64,000 nucleotides of DNA, from positions 5,576,587-5,640,586 of the forward strand of contig CM120648.1 of the NCBI GenBank assembly GCA_051362555.1, read 5' to 3'. The notes under the pieces were generated by a model. It was not told the DNA's origin and made no database searches. It saw nothing but the letters and a program-made list of their open reading frames with translations. The number at the start of each line of letters is the position of its first letter. The stretch's first letter is position 1. The position numbers were made by a program, and so were the translations under genes. The stretch is from Lingula anatina (taxonomy: Eukaryota > Animalia > Brachiopoda). This document shows, piece by piece, positions 22,820 to 63,123 of the stretch.

Positions 22820-25763
22820 TATGTTCTGTAGAATACACCAGAAACTAGAAAAGCACTCAGAAAGCGCAGACCTACACCAAGGCAGCAAAGTCTCCATCCA
22901 ATGCCGTTTCACCCCTAAATTTTTGATATATTTTATTATTGATTATTGATTGATTGATTATTGATCCAGATCACCACCAAAAACTAATCATCTGTTCCTT
23001 GGCCCACTTCTGACAGTTCCTGAAAATTTCATAAAAATTGGTCCATAACTTAGTTTTTTGATTATTAACTATTGATTATTGACCTGGATCACCACCAAAA
23101 ACTAATCACTTCTATATTAACCTATTTCGGGCCTACCCTGAAAATTACATCGAAATTCATCCATAACTTTTTGAATTATGTTGATGACAAACATACAGAC
23201 GGACAGAAAGACAGACAGACAAACAAATAGGGGTGAAAGCAATTAGTTCTGAGAGTTTTAAAGAACGTCATTTTTCCAAGTATTGGAGTACTTTCACTTT
23301 CCCGTCCCATTGGGTCATAGTCAGATCTTCATCCTGGTTGATGGTACATGCCCATGGGTATTCTAGTCCATCAGCTTTGGTTGCTATGTACTGGATGAAC
23401 TTCCCATCTGGGGAAACCAGGTGTATGCGGTGGTTATCATAGTCAGTAACCAGTATGTTGTCATATGCATCAACACAGACACCTCCTGGTCGATCTAACT
23501 TGTTATCAGGTCCTGTGTACTGATACAGTGGGTCACCAGATGGGGTTAGGATGTGAAGTTTCTTTTGTGATATATCACTAACGACAAGGCACCCCTTGCT
23601 CATATATGCCACTTTATATGGTGCACTGAACATCTGTTTCCAATCTTTGTCTTTTATCACTTCAGTTAAAGTTATTTCCTCTTTGATATCAATACTGAAC
23701 ACACTCACAGACTTTTGTTTCTCACCCTGTGCCACAGCCATCTTAGTGCAGCTGTTATTGAGAGCCACGCCCCATGGGTTGTTGACATCTACAGTTTGCT
23801 GTACTTCCAGCTTTGGTGACAAGATGAACATTTTGTTATTTTCTGCATCAGCTAGAACCACCCTTCCATCAGGGAAGTGACAGATCCCTGTTGGACAACG
23901 CAGATGTGTGTTAGAGACACTGGTGATCTCCTTTCTTAATGTACCATATGAACTAAAAACCTTGAATTTGTTATGAATGTCATGTGTAGTAACATACTCC
24001 TTGTTTGGACCCATTGAAATGTCAACTGGTATCACCCACCTGGCTAAATATTGATAAAAATGTTTAGTTCTACAGTCAAACTCCCTAATACATTTTGCCT
24101 GTGGTTTGATTTTCGGCAAAGCAGTTTGTCTAGATATCTTCTCATTCCCCAGGCCAGCCCCACTGGATATCTCTTGGTCCATTTCTGTGTTGGTGGTTAG
24201 TGTGACATTAAGTTCTTCAGGGGCTTTATCCACAACTGAAGTGGACAGTAGCTCATCTAGTCTCTGTCCAAGTTGGTGTTGTAACATGAGGACATCAATG
24301 GGGTCAAAATGCTGAATGATATTCTTTACTACATCTGTTGAGGTTTCAATAGAGGAGCAAGTGGCACTGCAGTCATTGCGAGAAGTTTGTAATTTCTTCT
24401 TGTGAGTGCTGGTTTCTTGGTGAAGCTTCTGCAATAAGGTTTGCTCTCGTTGGTCTACCAGGTGACGTAGGTGAGTGGCGCGATCTTTTATCTTCTGCTG
24501 AACAGAGCTTTCATTTTTTTGAAGATTTGCCAATGTCTCATCAATTGCAGCTAATGTTTTCTTGCCTGTTGCTAATTTTCTGTCAGTCCCATGACATTTT
24601 GTCTGAAGTTGTGGTTTAAGTCTGCAGCTTTTTCAGGGGAGATAACTTTGTGATCATCATGGTGTAGGTTTTTGCAGTCGGGACAAATGAGGATATTGCA
24701 ATTTGCACAAAAATATCTTATCATCAAATCTTTGTGCTTTGGGCAGACAATCTTTTGATGCTCTTTGATTTCCCTTTTGTACTCACTGCTACGAAATTGT
24801 TGAAAGGTGAGTACTCTGTGGTCTTTATTGAGTCTGCTACCACAGTGGAATGGAGAACATCTCTCACATAGGTAGTCATGGCAGGTGATACATTTTGAAG
24901 TAGCCACTGTTTCTGTTTGGGACACCAAAGCACAAGTGCTGCACTTTTTCTTATGTGTTGACTGAAGTACAGTGTCCTGCAAGCTTCCAATGTAGAAATT
25001 GTGAGTGAAGCCCTCAAGTCCATCTTTAGGAACTTCAGTTTCTTTCTGACACATTGGACATCTGAATTTACTTCCTGATGTTAAGTCAGGAATATAATCC
25101 TTCAGACAGCCTTTACAAAATGTATGCCTACATGGTAAATCTGTGGGATCCTTATACTCCTCAAAGCACAAAGAACAACTCACAAAATGTTCAGTTATTT
25201 TGGCGAGTAGGCTTTCCTCGTCATCTCTGCTTACTAGAGCTGTAGCCATTTGGCGTTATGGAGTGAACTGTTCTCTGGAGAGCAGATATATATTCAATTT
25301 ATTGACCAGTTAGCTTGCTTTTAAGGCCAAGGTAGTTTGTTTTTGCTTTTCAGTGACATTTTTAAAAATTAAGCATATCATTAGAGATTTGTATGAATGA
25401 TATATTTGCAAAAATGTGCTCGCATTTTAAGTACTCATATTTTGTGAGTAAAATATCTTTGTTAATAAATGCTCCTGAAGATATGATGAAAAATAATTTA
25501 CATATGTAGCATGTCAATTTAAAATCTAGCCAGATTGCAACACACCCTCACATGCACACACACACGAACACACATATTATATCAATTTTTTTTACATGCC
25601 CTGGTGGAAAATGCAAGAAATATGTATGTGTGTGTGTGTCCATATGTGCATGAATGTGCACGCCTGTCATTTAATAAATATCCTCACAAGCATGTAACTC
25701 TCATTCTCTCTCCTTGTGAAAAAAATGTTTATCATGTCAAATTAAAATCTAGCCAGATTACAA

Positions 25764-35676: not shown

Positions 35677-37629
35677 TCACATTTCCAAGTATTGAAATAC
35701 TTTCACTTTCCCATCAAGTTCAGTCACAACCAGATCTCCATCTTGGTTGATTGCACATCCCCATGGTTTATATAGTCCATCAGCTTTGGTTGCTATGTAC
35801 TGGATGAACTTCCCATCTTGGGATACAAGGTGTATACAGTTGTTATCATAATCAGAAACCAGTATGTTGTCATATGCATCAACACAGACACCACGATGTT
35901 GACCTAACTTGTTTTCAGGTCCTGTGTACTGATACAGTGGGTCACCAGATGGGGTTAGGATGTGAAGTTGGTTTGATGTATCACTGACAACAAGGGACTC
36001 GTTACTCATATATGCCACTTTATATGGTGAATTGAACAACTGTTTCCCATCTTTGTCTTTTATCACATCAGTTAAAGTTATTTGCCCTTTGGTATCAATA
36101 CTGAACACACTCACAGACCTTTTTTTCTCACCCTGTGCCACAGCAATCTTAGTGCAGTTGTCATTGAGAGCCACACCCCATGGGTTGTTGACATCTACAG
36201 TTTGCTGTACATTGCACTGTGGTGACAAGATGAACAGTTTGTTATTGTCTCTACAGGCTAGAACCATCCTTCCATCAGGGAAGTGACAAATCCCTACTGG
36301 CCATTTCATTTTTGTGTCTGAAATATTTGTGATCTCCTTGCTAAATGTACCATCTGAACTAAAAACCTTTACCTTATTTTTGACGTCATGTGTAGTAACA
36401 TAATTCCCATTTGGACTCACTGAAATGTCGACTGGTCTCCAACAGCCAGTGTCAAACTCCAGCATACATTCAGCCTGTGGTTTAAACTTGGGCAAAGCTG
36501 GTTGTCTAGATATCTGCACATTCCCCAGGCCATCCCCACTGGATATCTCTTGGTCCACTTCCGAGTTGGTGGAAAATGTGAGATTTACTTCTTCGGGAAT
36601 TTCCTCCACAGCTGAAGTGAACCATAGTTCATCTAGTTTCTGTCCATGTTGGTGTTGTAACATGAGGACATCTATGGGGGCACCATGCTTAAGGATGTTC
36701 TTTACTACATCTGTTGCGGTTTTGATGGAGGAGCACGTGGCACTGCAGTTATTGCGGAAAGTTTGTAATTTTTTCTTGTGAGTGCTGGTTTCTTGGCAAA
36801 GCTCCTGTAGTAAGGTCTTCTCTTTTTGATCTACCAGGTGGCGTAGGTGAGCTGCCCGATCTTTTATCTGCTGCTGGACAGAGCTTTCATTTTCTTGGAG
36901 TTTTGCCAATGTAACATCAATTTTAAGTAATGTTTTCTCACCTTTAGATAATTTTCTCTCAATCCCACGAAATTTTGTCTGCATTTGTGGCTTTACCTTG
37001 TCTGCAGCTTTTTCAGGGGAGATGACTTTGTGACCATCATGGTGTAGATCTCTGCAGTCACAACAAATGGGGACTTCACAGTCTGAACAAAAGTATCTTA
37101 TCATCTCATCTTTGTGCTCAGGGCAGAAAATCTTTTGCTGCTCTTGGATTTCTTTTTTGTATTCTTTGCTCTGTAGCTGTTGGAAAGTGAGCACTCTATG
37201 ATCTTTTGTGAACTTCGTGCCACAGTGTAATATGGAACACCTCTCACATAGGTAGTCGTGGCAGTTGATACATTTTGATGTTGCTACAGTTTCAGTTTGT
37301 GAAGTTAAGGCACAAAAGCCACACTTTTTGTTATGTATTGGCTGAAGTACAGTGTCCTGCAGGCTTTCAATGAAGAAATTGTGAGTGAAGCCCTCAAGTC
37401 CATCTTTAGGTACTTTAGTTTCTTTCTGACACACGGGACATTGTAATTTACTTCCTGGAGTTAAGTCAGGTATATAAGTCTTCAGACAACCTTTGCAAAA
37501 TGTATGCCTACATGGTAAATCTGTCGGATCTTTGTACTCCTCAAGGCATAATGGACAGCTGATAAAATGTTCAGTTATTTTGGTTCGTAGGCTTTCTTCG
37601 TCATCTCTGCTTACACAAGCTGTAGCCAT
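35677..37629 (-). CDS. Intact TRIM-NHL E3 ligase (TRIM2/3/56/71-like, no filamin domain), single coding exon, 650 aa
   Basis: [27 protein letters not shown], two B-boxes, a coiled coil and NHL repeats ([22 protein letters not shown]). Probable 5'UTR exon with donor CAC|GTAGGC near 38058. Confidence 0.93.
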   Translation of the reverse strand: MATACVSRDDEESLRTKITEHFISCPLCLEEYKDPTDLPCRHTFCKGCLKTYIPDLTPGSKLQCPVCQKETKVPKDGLEGFTHNFFIESLQDTVLQPIHNKKCGFCALTSQTETVATSKCINCHDYLCERCSILHCGTKFTKDHRVLTFQQLQSKEYKKEIQEQQKIFCPEHKDEMIRYFCSDCEVPICCDCRDLHHDGHKVISPEKAADKVKPQMQTKFRGIERKLSKGEKTLLKIDVTLAKLQENESSVQQQIKDRAAHLRHLVDQKEKTLLQELCQETSTHKKKLQTFRNNCSATCSSIKTATDVVKNILKHGAPIDVLMLQHQHGQKLDELWFTSAVEEIPEEVNLTFSTNSEVDQEISSGDGLGNVQISRQPALPKFKPQAECMLEFDTGCWRPVDISVSPNGNYVTTHDVKNKVKVFSSDGTFSKEITNISDTKMKWPVGICHFPDGRMVLACRDNNKLFILSPQCNVQQTVDVNNPWGVALNDNCTKIAVAQGEKKRSVSVFSIDTKGQITLTDVIKDKDGKQLFNSPYKVAYMSNESLVVSDTSNQLHILTPSGDPLYQYTGPENKLGQHRGVCVDAYDNILVSDYDNNCIHLVSQDGKFIQYIATKADGLYKPWGCAINQDGDLVVTELDGKVKVFQYLEM

Positions 37630-44700: not shown

Positions 44701-47700
44701 GTTTTACTAGGCGTGACAGACGTTTAAGCCAGTTAATTTGATAGCAATTTAGTGAGACTCCCCATGGAGATAGATTGATCCAAATATCTGTGGGAAAGGT
44801 CCCTAAGTGAATATGAGGCTGCATTCACAACCAGTTGATCTGTGGACTAACAAATCCACAGATTACACATGGCCGACACAAACCTAAATGAAGTGTGAAA
44901 GGGATAACTACAAATACAAAACTACTTTTGACTTAGCATCAAAATAAATAAATAAAAGTGAAGGTGAATGGGGGGATTCTTAGGATAATTCTGCTTAACA
45001 AAATTATCACTTGTATGTCATAATTTCTAACCATTTATTTGATCATTTTCGTCCCCAATATCCCATCTATCCATCATACTTGACCCTAGTGGTCACAACG
45101 CATAAAACAAAGGACCAATCAAAAATATAGTGAAAGTATAGGAATGGCACAAGATTAAGAGGCATGGTGATCCATGACAGCCAACCTGCTGAAAGTGGAT
45201 GGCACCCAATAATAATTACTCACAATGTACAGACTGGGTGATGTTGGAACATGTAGATGAAATAATTAACTTGTGTGAATAAGTTTTCCTTCTTACCCAT
45301 AAACTTGGCAGTCTCTTTAGGAGCATCCTGGCTCCTGACCTTCAACTTCACTGTTATACATTTGCCCTTCACCTTGACCTTTGACATGCGATTGTGAACC
45401 TCCTCTGCTAATTCATATAAGAACTTTTCCACTTCCTCCCACTGTTAAAATGAAAAGGATATAAATTAATATGTTGAACTAAATGATTAAGTATAAATAT
45501 TTGAGTTCATAGTCATTTGAAAAACTTCTTGGAACACAGCAAGTTGATGTAAATATGATGCAATTTTGACCAAAAGAAGGAGAATTTCTATGATAACTGA
45601 AAGCATAAAGCTTTTGTCCCAAGACTTGAGACCTTCACTGCAAGAACAAGCAAGGGGGGGGGGGGGGGAGCACAACTTGTCTGACACCTGGGACAGTGTT
45701 ACAGTGAGCAGTTCTCACTATACTGTTCAATATAAACTGTCTCGCAACTTCAATGTGACTGATGAAATCCCAAATGTTCACCTATTACAGGTATGCTTTC
45801 AGTAAGTGTAAAAATTGAACAGTTTTAAAATGTCATTATGCTGGACAGTTTAGCTAATTTAAAAAATGAAAATAAACAAGCAGTCTACCTTCGTGAACCT
45901 AATCCCATAATTGATCTCAGCAGAGACGGATTTTCTTTCCTTCTCCACTTTGATTGGACGATCATCTATGCCCCGACAAAACCTGTGCAGTGATTGGCCA
46001 GTTTTGGGGCCGAATTCCTTCTGCAGAGTGGACAGGGAGACTTTCTGAAGGTCACCACACGTCTGAATGTTCATGGACTTTAGTCTGCTGGAGGTTGACC
46101 TGCCCACACCTATGGGGAATTGTAGAGCAGGTAAAAGGGACAAAGTTTATCCAATAATTACCTTGTTTTAACAAATTAATTAAAATTAAAATTGCAAATT
46201 AAATTGCAATTGCAATTTAATTTAATTAATTGCAATTTAATTAAAATTAATTGCAATTTAAAATTAAAATTAAAATTAATTGCAATTTAATTAAAATTGC
46301 AAAAATTAACTTTACCAAATAAGAGAATTGTTTGATTTGATTTGATTTAAAAAAAAAAGAGCTGTTGCATTTTTCATACACAAGTTTTAAGGTGAAACTT
46401 TCCTTGGTTTCATCAATCATCATAGAGATCATATTCCTCAATTTGCTGAGAAAACTGCTTGTTTGTATGAGTTGACAGGGAATAAAAGTGTTTTCAATTG
46501 GTCAGATGAACATCAAATAGCATTTGAAAGTTTAAAACAAGAGTTAACAACTGCCCCTTGTTTAGCCTTTCCTTTGTCTGAAGGTGAATTTATACTTGAT
46601 ACAGATGCATCATATTCATGTATAGGAGCAGAACTTTCACAGTTACAACATGGTGAAGAAAAGGTTATTGCTTATGGAAGTAAAATTATGTCACCTATAC
46701 AGCGGCGTTATTGTACAACTAGAAAAGAGCTCTTAGCTGTTGTAAACTTCTGTAGACAATATAGACATTATTTGTTGGGAAGAAAGTTCAGAATCCGAAC
46801 AGATCATCATAGTTTAGTGTCGTTGTTAGGATTTAAAAACCCAGATGGTCAGTTAGCAAGATGGTTAGAAGAATTATCTCAGTATAATTTTACCATTGAA
46901 CATAAACCAGGAAAGAAGCATGGAAATGCAGATGCATAATCAAGAATACCTGTAGCTATGAAAGAATGTGATTGCTATAAGGTGGGAGTGAAATTGAGTG
47001 AATTACCCTGTGCAGGATGTCATTATTGTCAGAGAGTACATAATAATTGGTCAAGGTTTGAGACTGATGTGAATGATGTAATTCCTCTGGGAAGTAAGAA
47101 ATCAGATGACAATGTAGTTGAATCGAATGCAATGGATGATATGAAGAATGAAACAAATTGTGAAAAATTCAGTTCAGTTTTGATGTGTCAGAGGGCTGAT
47201 ACAAATGATAAAACTGATAAGAATGAAAGAGATGAATTATGCAATTGGTTGAAAGGATATGACTTGAAAAAATTGCAGAGAAAAGATGCAGATTTGAAAA
47301 TAATCATAGGTTGGTTAGAGAATGGTGAACCTAAAGAATCAGAGTTGTATTTGTGTAGTATGGCAGTGAAAGGATTGTGGAATTGCAAAGAACAATTGAT
47401 TCTTTTGAATGATGTCTTATATTACAAATGGGAAAAGAGAGAGGATAGAAATTTATGTTTAATTGTACCAAAAGATTTGGTCAATGAAGTTTTATTTTTC
47501 CGTCATGATTCAAAAACAGCTGGTCATTTTGCTTATGAGAAAACTTTGCAAAAATTCAAACAATCATTCAAGTGGCATGGAATGAATAGAGATTGTAAAT
47601 TGTATGTAAGTTCATGTGAACTTTGCAATAAAAACAAGCATAGTACTGTTCGACCAAAAGCCAAAATGAAATTACATCATGCAGGATTTCCTATGGAAAA

Positions 47701-50700
47701 GGTTCATTTAGATATACTTGGACCATTTACTCAAAGTGAATTTGGGAATTCTTATATTTTGGTTATGATAGATCAGTTTACTAAGTGGATAGAATGTGTG
47801 GCATTGCCAAATCAGACAGCTGAATTAGTAGCAAAAGCATTTTTTGAAAAATTCATAGTTACTTTTGGTTGTCCACAAGAGATATATACAGATCAAGGTT
47901 CAAATTTTCAAAGTAGCCTATTTAGAAATTTGTGTAAATTATTAGAAATCAAACAACTTAGAACAACTGGTTTTAGAGCAAGTGCTAATGGACAAGTTGA
48001 AAGATGCATGGGTATTATTACACAGATGATTAGATATAATGTAGAAGGGAATGTAAGATATTGGGATAGAGATTTACCTCAATTAGTTATGGCATTACAT
48101 TCAACTGTGAATGCATCAACAGGGTTTACTCCTAACATGATGATGTTAGGGAGAGAAGTTTTTATGCCATTGTATTTACTAACAGGTTGTGTGAATGAAA
48201 ATTTGATACCATATGAGACTCATGAATGGTTGAAAAACTTGAATGAAAGCCTAAATAGATCACATGAAATGGCTAGAGAAAAATTGAAAGGTGTGCAGAG
48301 ACGTCAAAAACAATTGTTTGATGCAAAATTGAGAGAGAGTGAATATACTTGTGGTCAGAAGGTATATTTGAAGGATGAAAGTCATAAAAAGGGAGAAAGT
48401 AAGAAACTTAGACCCTTATATAGAGGACCATATGATGTTATCAAAGCATCCCCACCTCTCTATACCATTAACGATAAAAAAGGAAAAAACCAGGTGGTAC
48501 ATCATGATAGATTGAGAAAATTTGTTGAAAGAGAGAGTGATTTTCAGTTGAATGAACCACAATTGGTGGAACCAATTGTAAAAAGATCAAGATTTGGTAG
48601 ACAAATTAAGATGCCATCTCATTTAAGAGATTTCGCCTTAGAATGATTATATTGATGTATATTTAGTTTATTAGTTAAGGTATAGTTGTATATAAATACT
48701 TCCTTAATGTTCGGCAGTGCCGAAATAAAAGGAATTTAATTATTTGTATTTTTTTGTCTAGGTGATGGATGATACCAACATAAACAGCATTTTGCTAGAC
48801 ATAGATATCACGTGGACCAAACAATGGATAGAGAATCCTTCATCTCTGTTTCAAATTTCATTACAAAACTTAAAACCAAACTCTCTGTATGAAGCCAGAA
48901 CTATAATCTATCTAGGAAAGATATTGAATGAAAACCTTCTAAAAGAGAAGGGAATGGATTTTCTTATTGATAATATGCATATTTATAATAATGAGATTTC
49001 CAAAGAAGAAATGATACAAATAATTTTTTTTCTGAGAGACAAATTATATGGATAAAGATATATATTTGATAAAGTATATTATAGTTTGTACTTCCTATCA
49101 TATTACAGGTAATTTGATCAAAACAACAGTCCAAGTTGGTATATTTTTTTACATATTTGTTCGAATTTTATTGTTGAGCATGATACATTGAACACTGCAT
49201 GAATAAGTTTATAGCTATTTCTTTTGGATTAGGGTTATAGAAAAAAAAATTTGTTAAATATTGCCTAACATAGTTACACTGTTCAAACTTATATGTTGCA
49301 GTTGAGCATGTGTTTTGCATGTAAGGTAGTTGGATTGGATATTGTTACGGTATTTATGGTAGTTGGATTGGATATTGTTGAGGTAATTTTTTCTTATTAT
49401 ATATTTTCATGATAAAGTTTTTCATAGATTTAATATAAAAGTAATTTAACTTTGCTTTTGGTTTGAATATTTGAACATAGTTAATGCGGCAATGCTGTAT
49501 TACTATGTTAGTAATGTAATGCTATGCTGATAGTGTAATACTATATTAATAATGTAAAATTATGTTAATATTCATTTGAAAGAAAAGCTCATTATCATGT
49601 ATATTCATTCAAGAAAATAAACCATTGCATAAGTTTATTTCAGATATGGATGATTTAGACATGCTAGGTGAAGCCTATTTTGTCCTGGATTATGATGACA
49701 CTGATTTGGTGGAAGATCCTACTGCCCCAATTGGTGAAGAGGGGGAGGAAGTTACCCACCCAAAGAACCAAAACAATCTAAAAAAAATAAATAAAATAAA
49801 ATACATCTATTAAGCTCTCAATGTACAAGCTAATGTATGTTTCCCTTCTTTGCTATGGTCTGCCTGGTAGTAAATTCCTACTCACCAGGGATATCTTGTA
49901 TGGACTGTGTTTTCATGAAGTCTGTCACTTGATCAGGGGGCAAGTAGAACTGACCGTTTGGTTTGGCCACTCTGGTACACATCCGGGCAAGTAGTATGTT
50001 ACTGGCTGAGAAAATGTAAAATATCTTGTTGTGAAATCTCAACTAACGCTATTAAAACAGAAAAAAAGTGCATTTATTCTGTAGAACCAACTTGAAAGCT
50101 TGCTGTGTAATCCCTGTAAAACAGAATAACATTTATTTGAAAAATGAAAATCAGAAGTGTTTATATCTTGGTGGTGGGATAATGGAATAACAAGGGTATC
50201 AATATGAAGTTTCATTTTTTGCACTAGTACCAACTACAGGTCCATTTGAATGGCTGAACAGTATGCATGTGATCAGTTTCAGACACAAACACAATTATGA
50301 ATTTTCATAAACAAATAATCAACAAAAGTAAATGCACATCTCTTTGGATCATATATGTATTTAACTTTCTCTCTGCACTCCTCTCTCTGTCTCAAGGATA
50401 CACACAGTGACACAAACACACAGTGACACACACAGTGACACACACAGAGAGTGACACACACAGTCACAAACACACACACACACACACACACACAGAGCAA
50501 AACTACAAACACCTTCAGTACCTAAACCTGCCGAGGCATTGCACTTGGTGACCGCTCTAATCTGCTGTCTTACAATGGCCGCCAGTTCCTCAGGCGAGGC
50601 CCCAGTGTCCTGCAGCAGTTCTGTACAGTCAACATACATCTCATCACAACTTACAGCCTCTATGTCATGAGTGTAGCTGAATGGGAGAAAATGTGTTTAA

Positions 50701-51990
50701 CGCTCAGAAGTTTCTTTTCTTAATTATCTAAATATATCAATTTCAATCTAATTATGCTTTTCCTTTTTTAAACAATACAAATTAATAAAACACGATGTAT
50801 TATGTATCAATACTGAGGCATCAAGTATAATTTTATTCAAATTCAATGAAACACAATTACCGCTGTAAAAAACAATAAAATATTTATATATCTAAACCTA
50901 ATTTTCAAAAAAAAAAAAAAAAAAATACAATTTTCTTTGGTAGCCAGAATGTAGAAATCATGGTAAAAACAGTTTAAAATGCATGCATCACGCCCAAGCA
51001 TCCCCATTTTCATTACTTAACAATTACTGAGATATATTTTACTCTTTACTACCTTGCTATGATATCATAGAGTTGCTGGGCCACCGTTTTGTAGCCTTCG
51101 AAGTCATAGGGTATGGTGACTAGCTCAGGGCAGAGCCTCCTGGCCTGACCCATGAACATACCATTCTTCACTCCTACCTGGAAATATGTACAACATTGTG
51201 TCACAACAGTATAATGTGTTAGTTGAAATCTACTGTGTTAGTTAGGGTGCATTATGGTAGATTTTCTTAGATTAGATGCAGTGTGTTCTGATTAAGTGTG
51301 CTAGTTGAGGTTTGTTATGTTAGTTGAAGTTGTGTTAGATAAGATGCTTTGTGCTAGTTGAGCTTGTGTTAGATAAGATGCAGTGTGTTAGTTGAGATAC
51401 AATGTCACATGAGATATGTTGTTATGATAATTTTGCATCAAACTTGTGTGGACATTTTACATTCACTTAGCACGGCATCTCCTCACCTTCCTTGCTTCGT
51501 AACTACAAGATGCAATCTCAGCCATGGAATGAAAGGTTGCTTCGCTGCTTTGCTGAACTGGACCTGGCTTGTCTTGTACCTCACCAAGGTCAGTATCAAG
51601 ATCATCATCCAGGTTCGTTTGGGAATCGAGTTCACTGGATTGTTGAATGACAGATTTTTTATTTTTTCTCATTCTCTCTTCTTTTTTCTTGTGCCAAAGA
51701 GAGAATTCTTTCTCAACGTCTTTTTCTGACTTGTCAGGGACCCCCTTTCCTCTGGAATGTGTGACTGCTACAGGTTTTCCTGTGGAAAAAAATCCAAAAT
51801 CATCCAAGTTTCAATCAGTGCTTTCAGTTTAATATCAAACTGAATTCAATACCATTGTGAAGCATATACTTTAGTTCTAAAAAACAAAAATATGTACACT
51901 CAAATGTCAAAATGTCACAGATTTACAAAATTTACATATTTTAGATATATTATCTTGTGGTAAACTTGTGACAAATTTTCAAATCATTCA

Positions 51991-52033
<43 letters not shown>

Positions 52034-55000
52034 ACGACACTGACTCACCACTTAAATCTGGCCTGTTCCTCAGTCCAACTGACACAAAAAATGAGTCCAT
52101 ATCAATGTGCATTATAACCCGCCCTGATTCCTCACTGAGCTGCTTGATTTTGTCACTATTGAACTTTTTTATACCCATTCCACTAATATCACAAATTTCA
52201 GAGGACAACTTTTCACCATAAGACACAGAAAGACGATCAAGAGCAATATCCCATGATGCATCAGTACCGTTCTTTCTTTTCTGCATCATCTCCTTCAGAT
52301 GAGCACGCCCCAGAAAATCGCAGCTTTTGCTTTGTAGCTCATTAACATAAGCCTTGAACTCTGCCCCCCAAGTTGACAAATAGTGGAGGCGAGAGTGACT
52401 GTAGAACTCTGCAACAAAGTTTGCCTCGCCAGCCTTGGACATACGGGAATGTGGGGAATACTGCCCTCTGCTACTGGACCCTTGACCACTTCTGGCCGTG
52501 CTGGCCACACTGGATGAAGGGTGCAGCTGGCCACCTGAACCAGAAGTTTGACCACTACCACCAGACCCTTGACCACTTTCTGAGATTTTGGACTGAGGGG
52601 ACACAGAGAACGGCTGTACATTAGAACTTGATCTTTGAGCATTGACTAGAATTCTGGAAGGAGAAATCTGCTGACTGGCTGATCTTTCAACATTGTCTGA
52701 CATTCTGAAGGGTCCAGAAAAATGAGCACTTTTATCTGGAACATGTTGATTTGTATTTGGTGGAGTAGTAGAACTGGCATTATTTTCATCTGGGCCTTTG
52801 TTTAAAGTTTGTAACAAACATGATGATGGTGATGTTGATGCAGGCATTGGTGACGATGTTCCTGCTGATGATAGTGATGACACGGATGATGTTGATGATA
52901 AATCTTTAAAAACTGGGTCGGAGTTTTTCAAAAATGGATGATCACGGCTGACATCAACTGTCCTCCTAGGAGGTGGAATGTGGAATGCGCTGTCTTTTAA
53001 AAAACTTGCTGCTTCTCCAGAGCTGTCTCTTTGACCTGAGACCTTCTCTCTCATTAGTGTTGTAGACTTGAAATGCTTTGATCCAGAATCTGATAGCTCC
53101 TTATTAAGATTTTGTTCAGACATGGAGGGTTGAGCTGCCCCATGATGAAAATCAGGTAATTTTTTAACAACTGAGACAGATTCTGTGATAGGAGAATGAT
53201 GCGAAATTGTGGCAGGTGAAATAGAGTTCCTAATTGGTGAATGTCGCGATAGCGAAGTACAACCAGAAAGATAACCTTCTTCACAAAAAAGATCATTTCT
53301 AGAACTTGAATAGTGTTTCGTTTTACTACTGCTGACAGAATTTCCATTGCTTTCAGTTTCCAATCTTGAGCTATATGCAGACTGGCAACTAGAGTTGTTG
53401 TTACTGACAGCCTCATTTCCAAAGTGAGGCTGGTGTGTGGAGGATGTTGCATGACTGGAGAAGCTGAGAGCTGGCTGTAGCTTTGATCTGGCTGTATACA
53501 GAAGATAGGGCACATGTGACAACAGTTTGCCTGCCTTGATGCTGGAATATATCAAAATATCAATAATTTTATTTATTGATATGAAGATATTGTTAATAAT
53601 ATATTCAGACTACTGTATTAAAACAGCAATATTGCAATCACATTTATTTGTTGAGTTTTTTTCCAGGAACCTTCTCGCAAAAGAGAAAAGAAGGCCCATA
53701 ATGATGCATACAATTTCATATAGATGAAGAAAATGAACTCATAAACTCGATACTAACAAATGTATCACCAGCCAAGTTCAAAAGACTTTCGTTAGACTGA
53801 GTCAGTGTCACTAACTGACCAGTGCATGGTTTAGAGCTGGTCATTGTGTCATTCACCTGTCTGTAATCCAGTCTGGCCTGACCACTTTCTGTACCTTAAG
53901 GTCCCTGATCTTACTGTCCGGCAAGTTGGACGCTATGACGTGGGTGACTGAGAGTTTGGACAGGTAGTGGATGTACTTCCCGCCATGAAGCATCATAAGA
54001 CGCTTTAACTGGTTGGCTGATGGATCTGAGGAGAGCAAAATATAGAAATAAATTAATAAATAGTCATACCATATATATCGATAAATACATTTATAAATAG
54101 ATCAATAAATAAATTAAAAGGTAAATATGTATTTATCTATTTCATGTCATGTAAAATACAATTTAAAGGGCAGTTGCAAAAATTGTTACGGACAATATAA
54201 TTCCTACATGCTATTTGATTTAGGTAAATATATTCTCTTATGTTTTGTAGTTGCATTTATTTTAAAATGTAGTACATGCAAAATCATATCAAGTTGCCCT
54301 ACATACTTGTATATCCATTTACAAAGATAGCTACTCCATGGAATATATTTGAACTTTGCCCTTCTTCAGTTTGGGCTACAGGCTTTTCTTCCTGGAACTG
54401 TTCCTGAAGTTTCTGTTTCTTGGCATTCATATAGCCTCCCTGAAACCACACAAACAAAGGCATGACAGCATTTTACTGGCAAGGATGCATTTCAACTAGA
54501 TTTATCAGGGGCTTCTCAATAATCTGAAGGTCCATTGGTCCAAAGAATTGTATGCACACACCTCTGATGAACTTTACTTTATTACCAGTACACTATGACT
54601 AAACACTTTATTCATGCATCAGCTGTGGACTATCAAACCTTCGGACCAATGGACCTTAATTTGGACTATTGCTAAGCCCCAATTTATCAACAAAAATTAA
54701 TAACGCTCATACACGCTCGGCTGTCACCTTGATTGGATAGTAAACAATTGTCGTAAAATCGCTAAATGATATTAAAATCGGGTACATAAACTTAAAAACC
54801 ACCTAGGACAACCTCAGACTGCCACATTAATCCAATACAATGCAAAAATAAACTATAACAAGTGGTTAAAGCCTTCAAACCGAATGTCGTAAAGTCCCCA
54901 TATACCTCCATAGAGACAATAAAATAGAATAAGCTTCTGAAACAAACCTGACCCAGTTCCAACAGAATAATCGAAATAAAATACTGCCGGGCATCGGAGC

Positions 55001-56847: not shown

Positions 56848-59336
56848 ATGGACATCCTGGTCAAGCCAGGCAGTCATGTCCAGTGGGACTGGTACAAGAG
56901 TCACGAGGGACGAGAGGTCATTATGTCCATTATGCACAGGAATCTTCATCAACGAAAAGTCTTCGGTGAGAGTGACATTTTTTTTTGTAAATTTTGTTGC
57001 AGCCATACTAGTAGTTCTTGTCAACTGAATTGAGTTCATTTAGTAATTTTAACTGGTTTTGGATGTTTTATTATAAAGATTTACTGTCATACCAATTAAT
57101 AATGTCAGATTTTTCATATTCTAGACTGTGCTAATTATATAATATTTCACAGTCATGCTGAAATACTACATGCAGTTTGCCTCCTTTTCTATCTCAAGAT
57201 TAAACCTTGTTTAAAAAAAATACTGGTACAATATAAGACCCTATGTATTTTATGCTAATGATATAATATTCCACACTCACAATTGGCATTGTTTTCTGAC
57301 AGGGCTGCTGGAAAGACCCAGTTTTCCCCCACATTTGGCTCCGGAGGAGTACAGGTTTAAGATATTCGTGTGTGGAAAGAGTGGCGTTGGTAAAACAAGC
57401 ACCATTTCTAAGCTGTCAGGGAATGAAGTGCCTTCCATACACAGCGAAACACCAGGTATAAGTACTGGTAGATATAGGTCTAGGATGTTAGCTGCTGGTC
57501 ATAGAGAGTAGACCAGTACATTTGACATAGTGGAATTATTTTGCAGTTATTTAGAGGTTGTTTTCAAGTCTGTTATCTGTACATTTCATGCTTGGGCTTG
57601 TTACTTTTGGTCCTTTCAAATTGTACATGTATATATATCAGGCCTGTAGGTAGAATGGTTTCAAGGCGGTTGAAAGAACTCCCTTTATGTGTTTGGAGAA
57701 AACATCTGCTGCGAATCAAGTTTGATTAAGAAATTCTAAACCAGTCAAGGGGGGTTAAAAAAAGATAAACTTTTGCAGAAAATAAGAATATATGCCTGTG
57801 CTCAGTACACATTCATGTATATCATTTCTATAAAATGCCACATCTTCCCACTGTTTACTATATACTACGTAGTACTGTTTAATATAAAATGTCACATTTT
57901 CCCCCCAGGTATCCAGACTACAGAAGTATACTGGCCAGTGAAGATCTTACATGAGGACAAAGTGGTCATGTTTCAGCTCCAGTTCTGGGACGCAGGAGAA
58001 AATGCCCTCAAGAAGTTTGACCATGTTTTACCAGTAAGTCCATCATGCACTAGCATAACAAGGGATTTAATGAAAGTTTGATCATGTTTTACCTGTAAGT
58101 GCAGCAATGCACGGGCATTATGAGAGATTTAATAAAAGTTGGATGATTGTTAAATAGAAATATGAAATATGGGTTTTTAAACAAAATTTATACTGGAACT
58201 TGTTCAGATAGATAAAGAAAGTAGGGAATGCATAATGAGTAATGATAATGTGTTTAATTTGACCACATTGAAGGGAAGTAGTCAAGCTCTGGATTTTAAT
58301 ATCCATGCTTGAATTTGTGGTAGTAATTCACAAAATTGATTGCAATTTTTAACATAATTTAAGTTGATAAAATGTGGACTAAGAAATAATTTCCTTTATA
58401 GGCCTGCAAGGACCAAGCAGATGCTGTGATGTTTGTCTTCAGTTTTGTGGACAAGTCTGGATTTGAGGATCTTCCGCAGCAGATGTCAAGGGTTATAGAG
58501 CCCCAAGACAACGTTTGTAGATTTATAATGGGAACTAAGTATCCTTTGTAATGATATCGTCTGCTGTGGTTATCGCACTCGACTCTGTAAAGGGAAAGCT
58601 ACCAAAAAGCATGAGAGTTTTTATACATCACACAGGGCCTAGTTTACTTGGTGAACACTAGATGGCACTTGTGTCCTGCTCGGCCCCTTTTTATACATAT
58701 AATTTTAATATATCATATATTTTTTTTGTGGTTAGAAGTTGTTGTGATTTTGTAGTAAACTTAAATATTCATTTGTTTTATACTAGTTCTTGGATCAAGT
58801 ATGGATTCCCACCTCTCACACGCACTGTCCCTGCTGGGGCAGAGGAATTAAATCTTGGCATGCTTTGAAGTGGATCATGGCACTAGTTTGTCCACAGTTT
58901 GTCCACAACTGGTTGTGAATGTGACCTAACTTTGTTTGAATATGTTCCATTTTCTTTCTAATCCAGTAGGATGAAGCTGTTGTAATAAGTGACATGTGCA
59001 GGTAAATTATTTTCTTCTGATCTGATCATTTACAGATCTATTATTTATTTATTTATTTATATAAAATTATTTATTTATAAAAAAATTGATTTCCTTAACC
59101 CCTGTCTCAGATATGACCTCCACGCACACAGCGAGATCACGCAGAGGGACATACGAGACTTTGAACAACAATGGAGGACGCCAGTGCTCCGCATTAAAAA
59201 CATCACAGACTATAGGCAGACTGAACTCAGGGGCGACCTTAACGAGGTAGCACCAATACTTAACACGATATGTGAACACTTGTGGCACAGGGAACAAATA
59301 CTACAAGGACGATACAGTATACCTGTAGAAGTTTGA
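56848..59336 (+). CDS. CPLANE2: Ciliogenesis and planar polarity effector 2 (RSG1, atypical Rab-like small GTPase)
   Basis: Exons at about 56848-56966, 57303-57455, 57909-58033, 58402-58538 and 59111-59336. They give RKVFGLLERP, FKIFVCGKSGVGKT, HSETPGIQTTEVYWPVK, LQFWDAGENALKKFDHVLPACK, MGTKYD and LNTICEHLWHRE. Confidence 0.92.
58539..59110 (+). other. U12-type (minor spliceosome) GT-AG intron
   Basis: 5' site GTATCCTTT at 58539; branch site TTCCTTAAC at 59091-59099, 11 nt before the intron end; splicing restores GTK/YD. Confidence 0.9.
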
Positions 59337-60027
59337 GGGAGGTTTTCAGTGTGCGAGAAAGGACTGAGCCTCAGAAACATTCGTTTTTTAGTTCTCTTTA
59401 TGCTGTTCAAGAATTTGTTTTTTTTTTTAAGGTCAGTTCTTATTCTCAGCATTTACTACTGGTGGATTTTTAGTCTACGAGATAAGCAATACATTTAGAT
59501 GATATAATTGTGCTTGTATGATCTGCAAAACTTTTTATTCTCTTCGTCATTAGCGCGTTTGGCATTTTGTGACATCTGATTTCCGAGAAATACCAATCTC
59601 CATAACTTGAGATTATAAAAGTTAAGGTGCTTGAGAACAATCTGGTGTCGTCTGACCAGACCCGCACCATCAAATTAATTAAGACGCATTTGTCAGCAGG
59701 CACAGAAGAGAGAGAGAGACAGGAGAGAGAAAGAAAGAATGAGATAATGAATGAGACAGAAAGGAGAGGTGAGAGAGAGGGAAAGAGCGTGTGTGTGCGT
59801 GTATGAGAGAGAGAGGGGGAAGTGAGTGTGCTGAAACGTGCTCCGCCCCTCAAAGATGGTTGCAGCTAAGATTTTCCATACGATGCAAAAGCAAACACTT
59901 GAACAGCTCTTAGTCGACTTTTTCTACAATTTTATTGCTGCGGAAAGTTGATTTTGATCAAAAATCTCAACATGACGGTCTCCTGACAGGACATTACTTC
60001 TGTGTTTAAGTCACGTGGTTGGATCAG

Positions 60028-61181
60028 CTATTCGACTTTCTCTACAAATAAATGGTAAATGATGTAGAACTACATGAATAAAGTTTTTTTCAATCAACGT
60101 CTATTAACGCTACATACACTGTAGTTTTAAACAGGTGGGAATTATGGACCATATGGTAGTGTAAAATCCAAAGGGGTAAATGATAACCCAAGTGAAATTA
60201 GTTTTTTAATGGATCCAGTGGTACTGGTAGTGGAAACTTCTATTTCACTTCAATAAAACAACTATGTTTTCCCTCACATTGTAGACGGAATGAGTTGAGA
60301 TGGTGGTAAACTGGAGGGTAGTGGATAGGTGAGATGATGGAACTTTTTAAATTGAAAAACACTATTCAGTAACAAGTAAGAGGAACATAATCAAATAGGC
60401 ATGTTCATCAGCAAAACGCGACATAATGAGTTTTCTTACCGGTGTCGTCCGAGTTCGGAAAGTCGGCTGTGTCTTCAAATTCGTCCGAGTCGGATGTTAT
60501 TTCTCTCTCCATCTCTGCAATCTCTTCATCGGATAGAGTATCTGGCTGATCCTAGTGTTAAATAAAAAATCAAATCAAGTGCTAAAATTAAGAAAACAAC
60601 AAACAGATGAAATAGGAAGAAAAACCAATGTGGAGTTTGCCAATGAGCCACTTTTGGGGGGAAAATAATCTACTTCTCTTATAAATGTGTCAATGTGAAT
60701 TTTAATCCTGGTGTGTTCTACAAAATAGCAATCACACCAGTGCCAATGTCTCTCCTGAACTTACCCGGCTGAACAAAACCTCTGCTGCCCTCACAATTGC
60801 ATTCGTGAAGCCCTGCTCATTACGGGGACCGTGAGCAACGTAGAAATCGAATGCTTTGTTGCACAAGTTGGCCACATCGGAAGCATGCACATCGGGCTCC
60901 TGTTCACGCACTGCTTTTGTGCACTCTGGCACGAAAACCCCTCTGTTAGCGAGCATTTCCCATTGACTGGGCGGTTTTCTCATTGTTAATCTCTTAAGGG
61001 CATGCTTGATCCTGTTAAAGCGTATTCGAAGGCGAATTCGGGGTAGCCTGACGGGTGGTAACCGGATGCGTGGTATTCGGATGCGTACGCGAAATCGGAA
61101 TCTTCTTCTAAAAGCATCCGCCTCATGGACGTAATATACTGCAAAGGCGACGGCCAGTAGACATAAAATCGTGAACTTCAT
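60028..61181 (-). CDS. Unknown secreted prepro-protein, about 180 aa; candidate Arg/Pro-rich antimicrobial peptide precursor
   Basis: Exons 61181-60765 (donor CGG|GTAAGT), 60551-60440 (donor CCG|GTAAGA) and 60041-60028 splice in frame. The product is signal MKFTILCLLAVAFAVYYVHEADA, FRRRFRFRVRIRIPRIRLPPVRLPRIRLRIRFNRIKHALKR, a 75-aa 2-Cys domain, and acidic DQPD...DDTEKVE*. An acceptor lies just upstream of the ATG. Confidence 0.8.
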
Positions 61182-62091
61182 CGCAGAGCTGCTCTGAAAG
61201 ATAAAGTAATAATGTTTTTGGCGCTCTTTTTTTAAAATTAATACACGTGTGCTTGCGCGTGCGAGTTTGACGTTTGTTCGAGAAGGACTGTGTTCACGTG
61301 TATGTGCGTGCGTGTTTGTGCGCGGGCTTTTGCAGACATGAGTGGAAGGGCTGTCCTGTACCGCACCAGTTTGTCCAGTGTAACGTACGTGACAGAGACT
61401 CCCCCATGAAAGAGAGTCCGCTTTCTCTTCATTTGTATAGGTAAGCCTCTCCCTAGATTTTGACACACTTTAGGTACAGGCTAACCCTAACCATTATAAC
61501 TATATGGAGGGCGGACTATCTGTTACACAGACCCTCAGTTTCGTCACACCTGTTCTAAATGCAGGATTTTTACTCCCTTTCACAATTAATATTCTATTCA
61601 ATATTAATCTAGTTTTAACTGGTCGCGTCGAGTGTAGGTGACTCTCTGAGGTCATAGAAAGCATATAAGCTTGGTCAGTCTCTCAAACTGGAGCGCTACA
61701 GAAAGCTGCACTGTTCAATAACATAAGACCAGAAGGTCATTGAAGTGTGCACTAACTATTCTATTCAGTAAGGTTGAAGTGAAATTTACATGAAAGCATA
61801 TATGTATTAATACACGGGTGCGTGCGCGTGCGAGATTGACGTTTGTTCGAGAAAGATTGTGTATATATATATACAGACCTATGTGAACACATACGTTATA
61901 ACGATGACGTCAACAAACAGACTGTCTAATCTAGGAAATTTCATGTTCTTATACCAGATCTAATAGACTTATCAAAAGTAAAAGAATGAAAAAATAGCTT
62001 ATGACCGAAAGAACTTCTGGTTCGTTTTGGCTAAACCTTTGTCGCAAAACACGGTGATATTAAAAACAAAAGGTCTACCTACTTTACTTAC

Positions 62092-62440: not shown

Positions 62441-63123
62441 CGATTTCTGTATTGTGCCTTGGTTTTTAGTGATTATCTATCTAGCCTAAGATTAACAGGC
62501 TGGGTTCATTGAACGATTTAAACGGTGTTTAGTTCAACAGAAAATGATAATTAAAGAAATTGTTCTCAAAGTCAAGGTATAGAAATATTGAGATTGCTTG
62601 CGTGATTTTTCACTTCGTGTATTAGGGGACTGCACGAGGATGGCCAAATTCTTTCTTCGATATACACGTTATACACACGGGCGTCTTGCTAAAACAAATC
62701 AGCTAGGTTTATGCCACGTCAAGCTGCGAAAGAGGAGAGAGAGAATGGGAGAATGAATGGATGAGAGAGAGCGAGAGAGAGAGAGAAGATGAGCGTGCTG
62801 AAACGTACTTCAGGGATGGCCGCAGCTAAGATTTTCCATACGATGCAAAAGCAAACACAACGGCAATGGTAGTGGAACAGTCTGCTTATGAACAGTTTCC
62901 CATTACTATGTCAGGTGACATTCAGTCCCTTTGCTGACCCCAATACTCCAACTAACCCTTACCCATACTTATCATATGGGACCCCGGACTTCTATTAATT
63001 CCTAAGACTACCGTTCCTATTACACCCGACCCTACAGAGTACATGTAAGCTACACCTCAAATTCTTACGTACAAGATACTGATTTTTGGTATTGAATATT
63101 TTACCTTCATTCAGCACAGATTT

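What the first reader, a model, noticed from the sequence alone, without database searches (positions are those of the whole stretch)
60028..61181. Unrecognised secreted precursor: cationic Arg/Pro-rich peptide with a charge-matched acidic tail (candidate new antimicrobial peptide family)
Seen: a 23-aa signal peptide ending in A-D-A. It is followed by a 41-residue segment with 18 Arg/Lys and no acidic residue, mostly alternating Arg with hydrophobic residues (FRRRFRFRVRIRIPRIRLPPVRLPRIRLRIRF) and ending in dibasic KR. Next is a 75-aa domain with two Cys. Separate exons then encode a 41-residue tail with 18 Asp/Glu. Established: many host-defence peptides are made as precursors with anionic neutralising pro-pieces and are released at dibasic sites; Arg/Pro-rich linear peptides include mussel myticalins and bactenecins. 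Inference: KR cleavage releases an amphipathic cationic peptide that the tail keeps inactive, and the middle domain may be a second product. I do not recognise the family. The ORF track misses the tail and adds a false N-terminus.
Basis: partly seen in the sequence, partly recalled or inferred. Interest (0 to 1): 0.85.

Follow-up and report, generated by a model that had tools for sequence, protein, structure and literature searches.

The report
Lamp-shell arginine-rich defence peptide precursor
This lamp-shell (brachiopod) gene encodes a predicted secreted protein that is likely cut to release a very arginine-rich, likely antibacterial peptide, and it carries a small predicted helical domain found here only in lamp-shell proteins; the activity is untested.

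Summary
Three minus-strand coding exons give 180 aa: signal peptide (23), Arg-rich segment ending in KR (41 aa, +18), two-Cys domain (75 aa, net 0) and acidic tail (41 aa, net -16). It matches the unannotated Lingula anatina RefSeq protein LOC106164468 (residues 1-139 identical; 6 of 41 tail residues differ). A diverged paralogue (LOC106164485/LOC106166363) keeps the signal peptide, a shorter weakly cationic peptide, LKR and an acidic tail, but has two copies of the domain. The domain is therefore the conserved core. It is predicted to be a small helical bundle (pLDDT 83). No real relative outside Lingula was found. Best reading (0.55): a host-defence precursor that works like mussel myticalins but is not one. 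Against it: no sense-strand read in 8 RNA runs of unknown tissue while the neighbouring gene was spliced; charge matching is not beyond chance; cleavage and activity are untested. The one paper on Lingula immunity could not be read.

The parts
61182..61193 (-). Last 12 nt of the 5' UTR after a predicted splice acceptor (intron ends at 61194); the upstream exon was not located
   Evidence: pyrimidine tract and CAG in the sequence; not seen in reads
61113..61181 (-). Predicted signal peptide, residues 1-23
   Evidence: hydrophobic core; same length and similar sequence in the paralogue, 0 of 5000 shuffles reach the score; SignalP not available
60996..61112 (-). Predicted mature cationic peptide, residues 24-62: 39 aa, about 5.1 kDa, net +16, Arg alternating with Phe/Val/Ile/Leu, 4 Pro
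   Evidence: AlphaFold2 gives pLDDT under 50 for residues 19-55
61055..61086 (-). 15-nt tandem repeat (2.1 copies, 88% match) inside the peptide, a likely route by which it lengthened
60990..60995 (-). Lys-Arg, residues 63-64, predicted convertase site
   Evidence: LKR kept in both paralogue records; cleavage untested
60765..60989 (-). Two-Cys domain, residues 65-139, net charge 0, predicted small helical bundle; present twice in the paralogue
60552..60764 (-). Phase-0 intron, 213 nt, between domain and tail
   Evidence: GT..AG; junction agrees with the RefSeq protein
60440..60551 (-). Exon encoding most of the acidic tail (residues 140-176 and one base of 177)
60042..60439 (-). Phase-1 intron, 398 nt
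   Evidence: GT..AG; junction agrees with the RefSeq protein
60028..60041 (-). Last coding exon: end of the tail and stop codon
59931..59936 (-). AATAAA, predicted polyadenylation signal

Best explanation
This Lingula gene encodes a predicted secreted precursor that is likely cut after its signal peptide and at Lys-Arg to release a 39-residue, +16 arginine-rich peptide that likely kills bacteria by binding and breaking their membranes. Shown: the gene, its parts, their charges, the alternating pattern and the paralogue. Inferred: signal peptidase cuts after residue 23; a kexin/furin-type convertase cuts after Arg64 and a carboxypeptidase trims KR; the acidic tail offsets the peptide's charge in the secretory pathway; the two-Cys helical domain is released as a second, folded product (or stays with the tail) and has a role of its own, because it is the conserved and duplicated part. 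A lytic rather than ribosome-binding action is inferred from low Pro content (4 of 39), no PRP motif and strong beta-strand amphipathicity. Expression would be limited to one tissue or stage, or induced.
For: Order of parts (signal peptide, cationic peptide of 23-42 aa with pI over 11 and over 10% Arg, KR, anionic C-terminal part) is that of myticalin precursors, whose synthetic peptides kill bacteria (PMC5577615); here 39 aa, net +16. Signal peptide, the start of the peptide, LKR, both Cys and an acidic end are kept in a paralogue at 35% identity, while the peptide varies in length and charge, as in myticalins. Residues 1-139 are identical between the window and RefSeq versions while 6 of 41 tail residues differ (Fisher p = 1e-4), which fits constraint on peptide and domain and a tail that needs only be acidic. 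Hydrophobic moment of residues 27-36 is 1.89 at 180 degrees against 0.18 at 100 degrees. Not in the 54-protein Lingula shell list of 2026; no length match among the 14 novel shell proteins of 2015.
Against: No sense-strand read on any exon in 8 of 9 listed RNA runs (6-30% of each read; tissues unknown), while the neighbouring + strand gene gave 27-61 spliced reads per junction in X2 and X3; defence peptides are often abundant transcripts (recalled). In the paralogue the peptide is 25 aa and only +5 with KR, a weak antimicrobial candidate, and the domain is doubled. The residue after KR is Leu, which convertases disfavour (recalled), and the full-length model puts KR inside a low-confidence helix, 55-66. 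Near-neutral total charge has a chance probability of 0.31 per protein. Only two distinct genes are known, both in one species, so no family expansion typical of defence peptides is shown. No excess of kappa-B-like sites.
Confidence: 0.55

Rival explanations
1. The helical two-Cys domain is the real product (a secreted signal, pheromone or gamete-surface ligand), and the cationic and acidic ends are pro-pieces for sorting, condensation in granules or charge balance.
For: The domain is the best conserved part and is doubled in the paralogue: 22-23 identities in 63-69 columns among three copies, scores 101-109 against shuffle maxima of 39-49. It folds confidently from one sequence (pLDDT 83, pTM 0.69). 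It is flanked by KR and by a single Arg at the domain/tail border. Silence in 8 runs fits a narrow tissue or stage.
Against: It does not explain why a pro-piece should be an invariant, strictly alternating +16 peptide. No amidation-type repeats of neuropeptide precursors are seen in the sequence.
Confidence: 0.2
2. It is a structural or adhesive secretion (mucus, pedicle glue, periostracum or apatite-binding protein) in which the cationic peptide and a phosphorylated acidic tail condense with each other or with mineral.
For: Oppositely charged blocks in one secreted chain. Two S-x-E motifs in the tail (146, 161), the recalled target of the secretory kinase Fam20C. Lingula builds calcium phosphate shells and many of its novel shell proteins are basic (PMC4595640 supplement).
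Against: Absent from both shell lists (the 2015 list uses other gene ids, so only lengths were compared). The paralogue has no S-x-E motif. No Gly/Ala/Tyr-rich repeats. Those lists come from cleaned shells and do not cover mucus or pedicle.
Confidence: 0.15
3. The window copy is a silent or decaying duplicate, or a gene present in only some individuals, and makes no product.
For: No sense reads in 8 runs. The last exon is overlapped by antisense reads from the neighbour's 3' end. The tail differs from the RefSeq version at 6 of 41 residues.
Against: Intact frame, canonical splice sites and polyadenylation signal. Four RefSeq accessions give the same 180-aa protein, which usually reflects transcript evidence (recalled). 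Residues 1-139 are unchanged.
Confidence: 0.1

Closest known systems
Myticalins and modiocalins of mussels (PMC5577615, PMC12294457)
   Same: Signal peptide, then a linear Arg-rich peptide, Lys-Arg, and an anionic C-terminal part; variable peptide between conserved flanks; start codon near the 5' end of the first coding exon; a phase-1 intron in the acidic part.
   Different: A folded 75-aa two-Cys domain (one or two copies) lies between KR and the acidic tail; one more coding intron; no Gly amidation signal; brachiopod rather than Mytilidae; no sequence link found.
BRICHOS-containing precursors of polychaete peptides such as nicomicin and arenicin (PMC6265681)
   Same: A cationic peptide made together with a folded domain and an acidic region and released at a dibasic site.
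   Different: The peptide is N-terminal and has no Cys; the domain gives no BRICHOS or other Pfam match and is predicted all-helical.
Penaeidins and arasin (PMC11678341)
   Same: Pro/Arg-rich N-terminal stretch followed by a disulfide-bearing, partly helical part.
   Different: Those keep both parts in one mature peptide with 6 or 4 Cys; here KR separates them, the domain has 2 Cys and is neutral, and an acidic tail follows.
Proline-rich ribosome-binding peptides (Bac7, oncocin, apidaecin; PMC11678341)
   Same: Linear, Arg- and Pro-containing, N-terminal Arg cluster.
   Different: Pro is only 10% and there is no PRP motif; Arg alternates with aliphatic residues.
Designed self-assembling antibacterial peptides MAX1, MARG1, PEP6R (PMC12940918)
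   Same: Alternating cationic and aliphatic arms around a central Pro-Pro.
   Different: The designs need a D-Pro-L-Pro turn; this peptide is all-L with further Pro in the arms, and its mirror symmetry is not beyond chance (9 of 13, p = 0.10).

Membership tests
Myticalin/modiocalin | Mature peptide 23-42 aa, pI over 11, over 10% Arg, right after the signal peptide | tested here: met
   39 aa, 15 Arg, computed pI at the program's ceiling of 12; definition
Myticalin/modiocalin | Tripartite precursor: anionic extension of 35-75 aa directly after the dibasic site | tested here: not met
   a neutral 75-aa two-Cys domain lies between KR and the acidic tail
Myticalin/modiocalin | Three exons, two introns, one phase-1 intron in the coding sequence | tested here: not met
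   two coding introns (phase 0 and phase 1) plus a predicted 5' UTR intron; definition
Myticalin/modiocalin | Conserved signal peptide consensus and sequence similarity to family members | tested here: not met
   compared by eye with the published consensus: only the first two residues agree; no mussel protein among the hits (the word-based searches are weak for short peptides)
Myticalin/modiocalin | Antibacterial activity of the synthetic peptide; gill-specific expression | not testable with these tools
   no assay; tissues of the 8 runs are unknown
Penaeidin/arasin | Pro/Arg-rich part joined to a 6- or 4-Cys part in one mature peptide | tested here: not met
   two Cys after the signal peptide, KR between the parts; no Pfam match
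Ribosome-binding proline-rich peptides | High Pro content with Pro-Arg-Pro motifs | tested here: not met
   4 Pro in 39 aa, no PRP; definition
BRICHOS-related peptides | BRICHOS domain in an acidic pro-region before a C-terminal peptide | tested here: not met
   0 Pfam families for P0002 and P0004; the peptide is N-terminal
Saposin-like/NK-lysin | Six Cys in three disulfides | tested here: not met
   two Cys per domain copy
Saposin-like/NK-lysin | Saposin fold | tested here: inconclusive
   fold searches gave only middling helical-bundle matches, best Z 6.3, rmsd 2.9, 60 aligned
Lingula shell matrix proteins | Detected in the shell proteome | tested here: not met
   accessions absent from the 54-row list and the whole supplement of PMC13425148; no length match in Table 26 of PMC4595640 (indirect)
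Convertase-processed precursor (general) | Cleavage at the dibasic site | not testable with these tools
   LKR is conserved; ProP and peptidomics not available

The most novel reading that the evidence does not exclude
A brachiopod-specific defence system in which an alternating Arg/aliphatic peptide, once freed into sea-water salt, assembles into beta-sheet fibrils or nets that trap and kill bacteria, a natural counterpart of designed MAX1/PEP6R gels, while the new helical two-Cys domain and the acidic tail act as a built-in anti-aggregation chaperone, a convergent equivalent of BRICHOS.
Probability: 0.12. Interest if true: 0.75.

Novelty: new variant of a known kind. Interest (0 to 1): 0.5.

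Why it matters
None of the papers opened here describes a linear antimicrobial peptide from brachiopods (two recent reviews have 0 mentions of the phylum), although the key paper on Lingula immunity could not be read. If active, the 39-mer is a cheap-to-make new scaffold with unusual beta-strand patterning from a marine host, and the precursor adds a new design: peptide, folded domain and acidic tail in one chain. The two-Cys domain is a small, well-predicted, lineage-restricted module with no assigned family, and is easy to express and solve.

Tried and rejected
No whole genome was held, so paralogues could not be counted and allele versus near-identical paralogue (window against RefSeq) stays open; no second copy lies in the window. 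Run search: no RNA holder listed; 9 runs came by species label, 8 were laid, X6 was not. Pfam, NCBIfam and PDB sequence searches (one hit at E 0.92) gave nothing usable. Of 8 hits in the representative search, 6 were dropped as summed weak matches to bacterial cadherin-like or TPR repeats. Profile searches: 2 of 7947 candidates at 99-408 aa, both Lingula; 0 of 7994 at 409-2000 aa; proteins under 76 aa were not searched by words. Atlas: no feature hit, structure rows under the bar. Fold searches found no clear relative: VIA best Z 6.5 for the full model and 6.3 for the domain, none at 8 or more of 48,161 chains; Foldseek best E 0.74; this shows neither that the fold is new nor that it differs. 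Complex prediction of peptide with domain plus tail: no answer, score 0.02. Mirror symmetry of the peptide: p = 0.10. Tail similarity between paralogues is compositional only, p = 0.26. Kappa-B scan: 58 matches against 66 expected. Earlier findings: none. Accession search in papers: 0 papers. Gerdol et al. 2018 is not held.

Full report
What is there. The window is animal DNA with spliced genes. On the minus strand, exons 61181-60765, 60551-60440 and 60041-60028 give a 180-residue protein. Both introns are GT..AG with pyrimidine tracts, an AATAAA follows 91 nt after the stop, and the long open frame has no Met before the proposed start. The alternation of basic and hydrophobic residues is real: 21 of 30 pairs, shuffle mean 11.7, p = 6e-5. 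A leader-plus-cationic rule fires once in the window and in 0 of 60 shuffled windows. The signal peptide is judged from sequence and from the paralogue; SignalP was not available.

Identity. A search with residues 62-139 returned 1 of 2 candidates: the Lingula anatina RefSeq protein LOC106164468, 180 aa, named only 'uncharacterized', with four accessions for one sequence. It is identical to the window protein over residues 1-139 and differs at 6 of 41 tail residues (Fisher p = 1e-4). Its length and junction residues agree with the two coding splice junctions. Whether the window holds an allele or a near-identical paralogue is open, as no genome was held; there is no second copy in the window.

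Relatives. HMMER over 1.84 billion representatives with the domain alone gave 8 hits. One is the protein itself, six are summed weak matches to bacterial cadherin-like or TPR repeats and were dropped, and one is real: LOC106164485, 232 aa, on a contig of the same recorded length as LOC106164468, with a close variant LOC106166363. The paralogue has a similar signal peptide (0 of 5000 shuffles reach the score), a 25-residue N-terminal peptide that shares a short Pro-Arg-Ile-Arg-Leu stretch (p = 0.013) but is only +5, the same LKR, two copies of the domain and an acidic tail of net -7. The three domain copies share 22-23 identities in 63-69 columns, with invariant Trp, Leu, Asn, Phe, two Cys 20 residues apart, Tyr and an Arg-Asn motif. 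Profile searches found nothing further. So this is a small family seen so far only in Lingula, and its conserved core is the domain. The long Arg-rich peptide is the variable part and holds a 15-nt tandem repeat. Coverage of brachiopods and their relatives in these databases is probably thin, so the restriction to Lingula is provisional.

Structure. AlphaFold2 folds the domain from its single sequence with mean pLDDT 83 and pTM 0.69 into a short helix and three long helices. A disulfide between the two Cys is inferred from conservation and secretion, not measured. In the full-length model the peptide is low-confidence, and helices are drawn at 55-66 (covering KR) and 147-160. No family could be assigned by Pfam or NCBIfam.

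Expression. Eight of nine listed RNA runs were laid, 6-30% of each; tissues are not given. X2, X3, X5 and X8 show zero depth from 60222 to 61278, while the neighbouring + strand gene shows four spliced junctions with 27-61 reads each in X2 and X3. X4, X7 and X9 show zero depth from 60128 to 61375; X1 shows depth 0.8-2.6 in a few bins, unspliced, in the orientation that the neighbour's reads have in the same study, so antisense. The gene is therefore not detectably transcribed in these samples. That counts against broad, high expression; it does not exclude a tissue-, stage- or infection-limited gene, or absence of the gene from some individuals. The junctions rest on sequence signals and on agreement with RefSeq, not on reads seen here.

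Charge matching. Trimmed peptide +16, domain 0, tail -16 in the window (-15 in RefSeq). After the signal peptide the totals are +2, +3, +2 and +4 for the four sequences, though the charge is spread differently in the paralogue. This fits a neutral precursor, but a total this close to zero has a binomial chance of 0.31-0.48 per protein, and two S-x-E motifs could add phosphate (kinase motif recalled). It is suggestive only.

How it most likely works. Shown: gene, parts, charges, pattern, paralogue. Inferred: secretion, cleavage after residue 23 and after KR, trimming, charge masking by the tail, membrane attack by the freed peptide, and a separate role for the domain. The model is the myticalin precursor: signal peptide, cationic peptide of 23-42 aa, KR, anionic extension, with synthetic peptides active on bacteria (PMC5577615: passages and section 2.1 read; PMC12294457: passages, which notes that the cleavage is unproven there too). 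Low Pro and no PRP motif point to lysis rather than ribosome binding (PMC11678341: passages). Against: silence in 8 runs, a weakly cationic peptide in the paralogue, Leu after KR (recalled as disfavoured), only two genes known. I put this at 0.55. Rivals: the domain is the main product (0.2), a structural or adhesive secretion (0.15), a silent copy (0.1). The shell-matrix form of the second rival was checked: the accessions are absent from the 54-protein list and the whole supplement of PMC13425148 (supplement part 1 read and file searched; passages), and none of the 14 novel shell proteins of PMC4595640 has a matching length (passages and supplement part 9).

Comparison. It works like a myticalin precursor but fails membership on the inserted domain, the extra intron and the signal peptide. 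It is not a penaeidin, arasin, BRICHOS precursor or saposin-like protein by Cys count, order of parts and Pfam. Polychaete precursors show that a folded chaperone domain can travel with a cationic peptide (PMC6265681: passages); big defensins show bacteria-trapping nets in marine hosts (PMC7203481: passages); designed alternating Arg/Val peptides gel in salt and kill bacteria (PMC12940918: passages). These three facts frame the novel case (0.12). The designs need a D-Pro turn and the symmetry of this peptide is not beyond chance.

Novelty. No paper in the library names the accessions; searches on Lingula or brachiopods with antimicrobial terms listed none on this gene by title or abstract start (listings only); two reviews have 0 mentions of brachiopods. 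The study of the Lingula immune gene set (Gerdol et al. 2018, cited) is not held; I saw nothing of it or its supplements, and it may list this gene. Verdict: a real, uncharacterised, lineage-restricted precursor, a new variant of a known kind, interest 0.5.

Noticed in passing
window 56900-60200 (+): Spliced gene with a small-GTPase-like P-loop (weak Roc/RsgA matches under the cut-offs; recalled as CPLANE2/RSG1-like). Junctions 56964-57302, 57451-57905, 58033-58402 and 58538-59111 are seen in reads, and its 3' reads trail to about 60200, overlapping the candidate's last exon in antisense.
   Followed up: partly
window 35680-37629 (-) and 23271-25255 (-): Intronless RING/B-box/NHL (TRIM-NHL-like) gene of 650 aa and a close copy whose frame is split over two reading frames near 24575-24632: a likely frameshifted duplicate or an assembly error.
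   Followed up: partly
window 46391-48643 (+): LTR retrotransposon pol remnant: RNase H-like stretch (by eye) and integrase domains, interrupted by a stop.
   Followed up: partly
window 45862-53609 (-): Exons that look like the translesion polymerase REV1 (recalled motifs; the one stretch scanned gave no Pfam match), with the retroelement inside an intron.
   Followed up: no
window 59807-59898 and 62773-62858; 61237-61293 and 61806-61862: Two pairs of direct repeats (83% and 91% identical) flank or lie upstream of the gene; reads show the first is a dispersed repeat family.
   Followed up: no
window 61477-61550: A short dispersed repeat element that draws thousands of partly matching RNA reads (depth about 1800 per direction in X9), mostly from one other transcript.
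   Followed up: no
window 61182-61194 (-): Several AG dinucleotides follow the predicted 5' UTR acceptor; tandem acceptors could account for several transcript forms that give one protein.
   Followed up: no
P0004 residues 170-191: The second domain copy of the paralogue has a third Cys at 191 with no partner in the sequence; it could link two chains.
   Followed up: no
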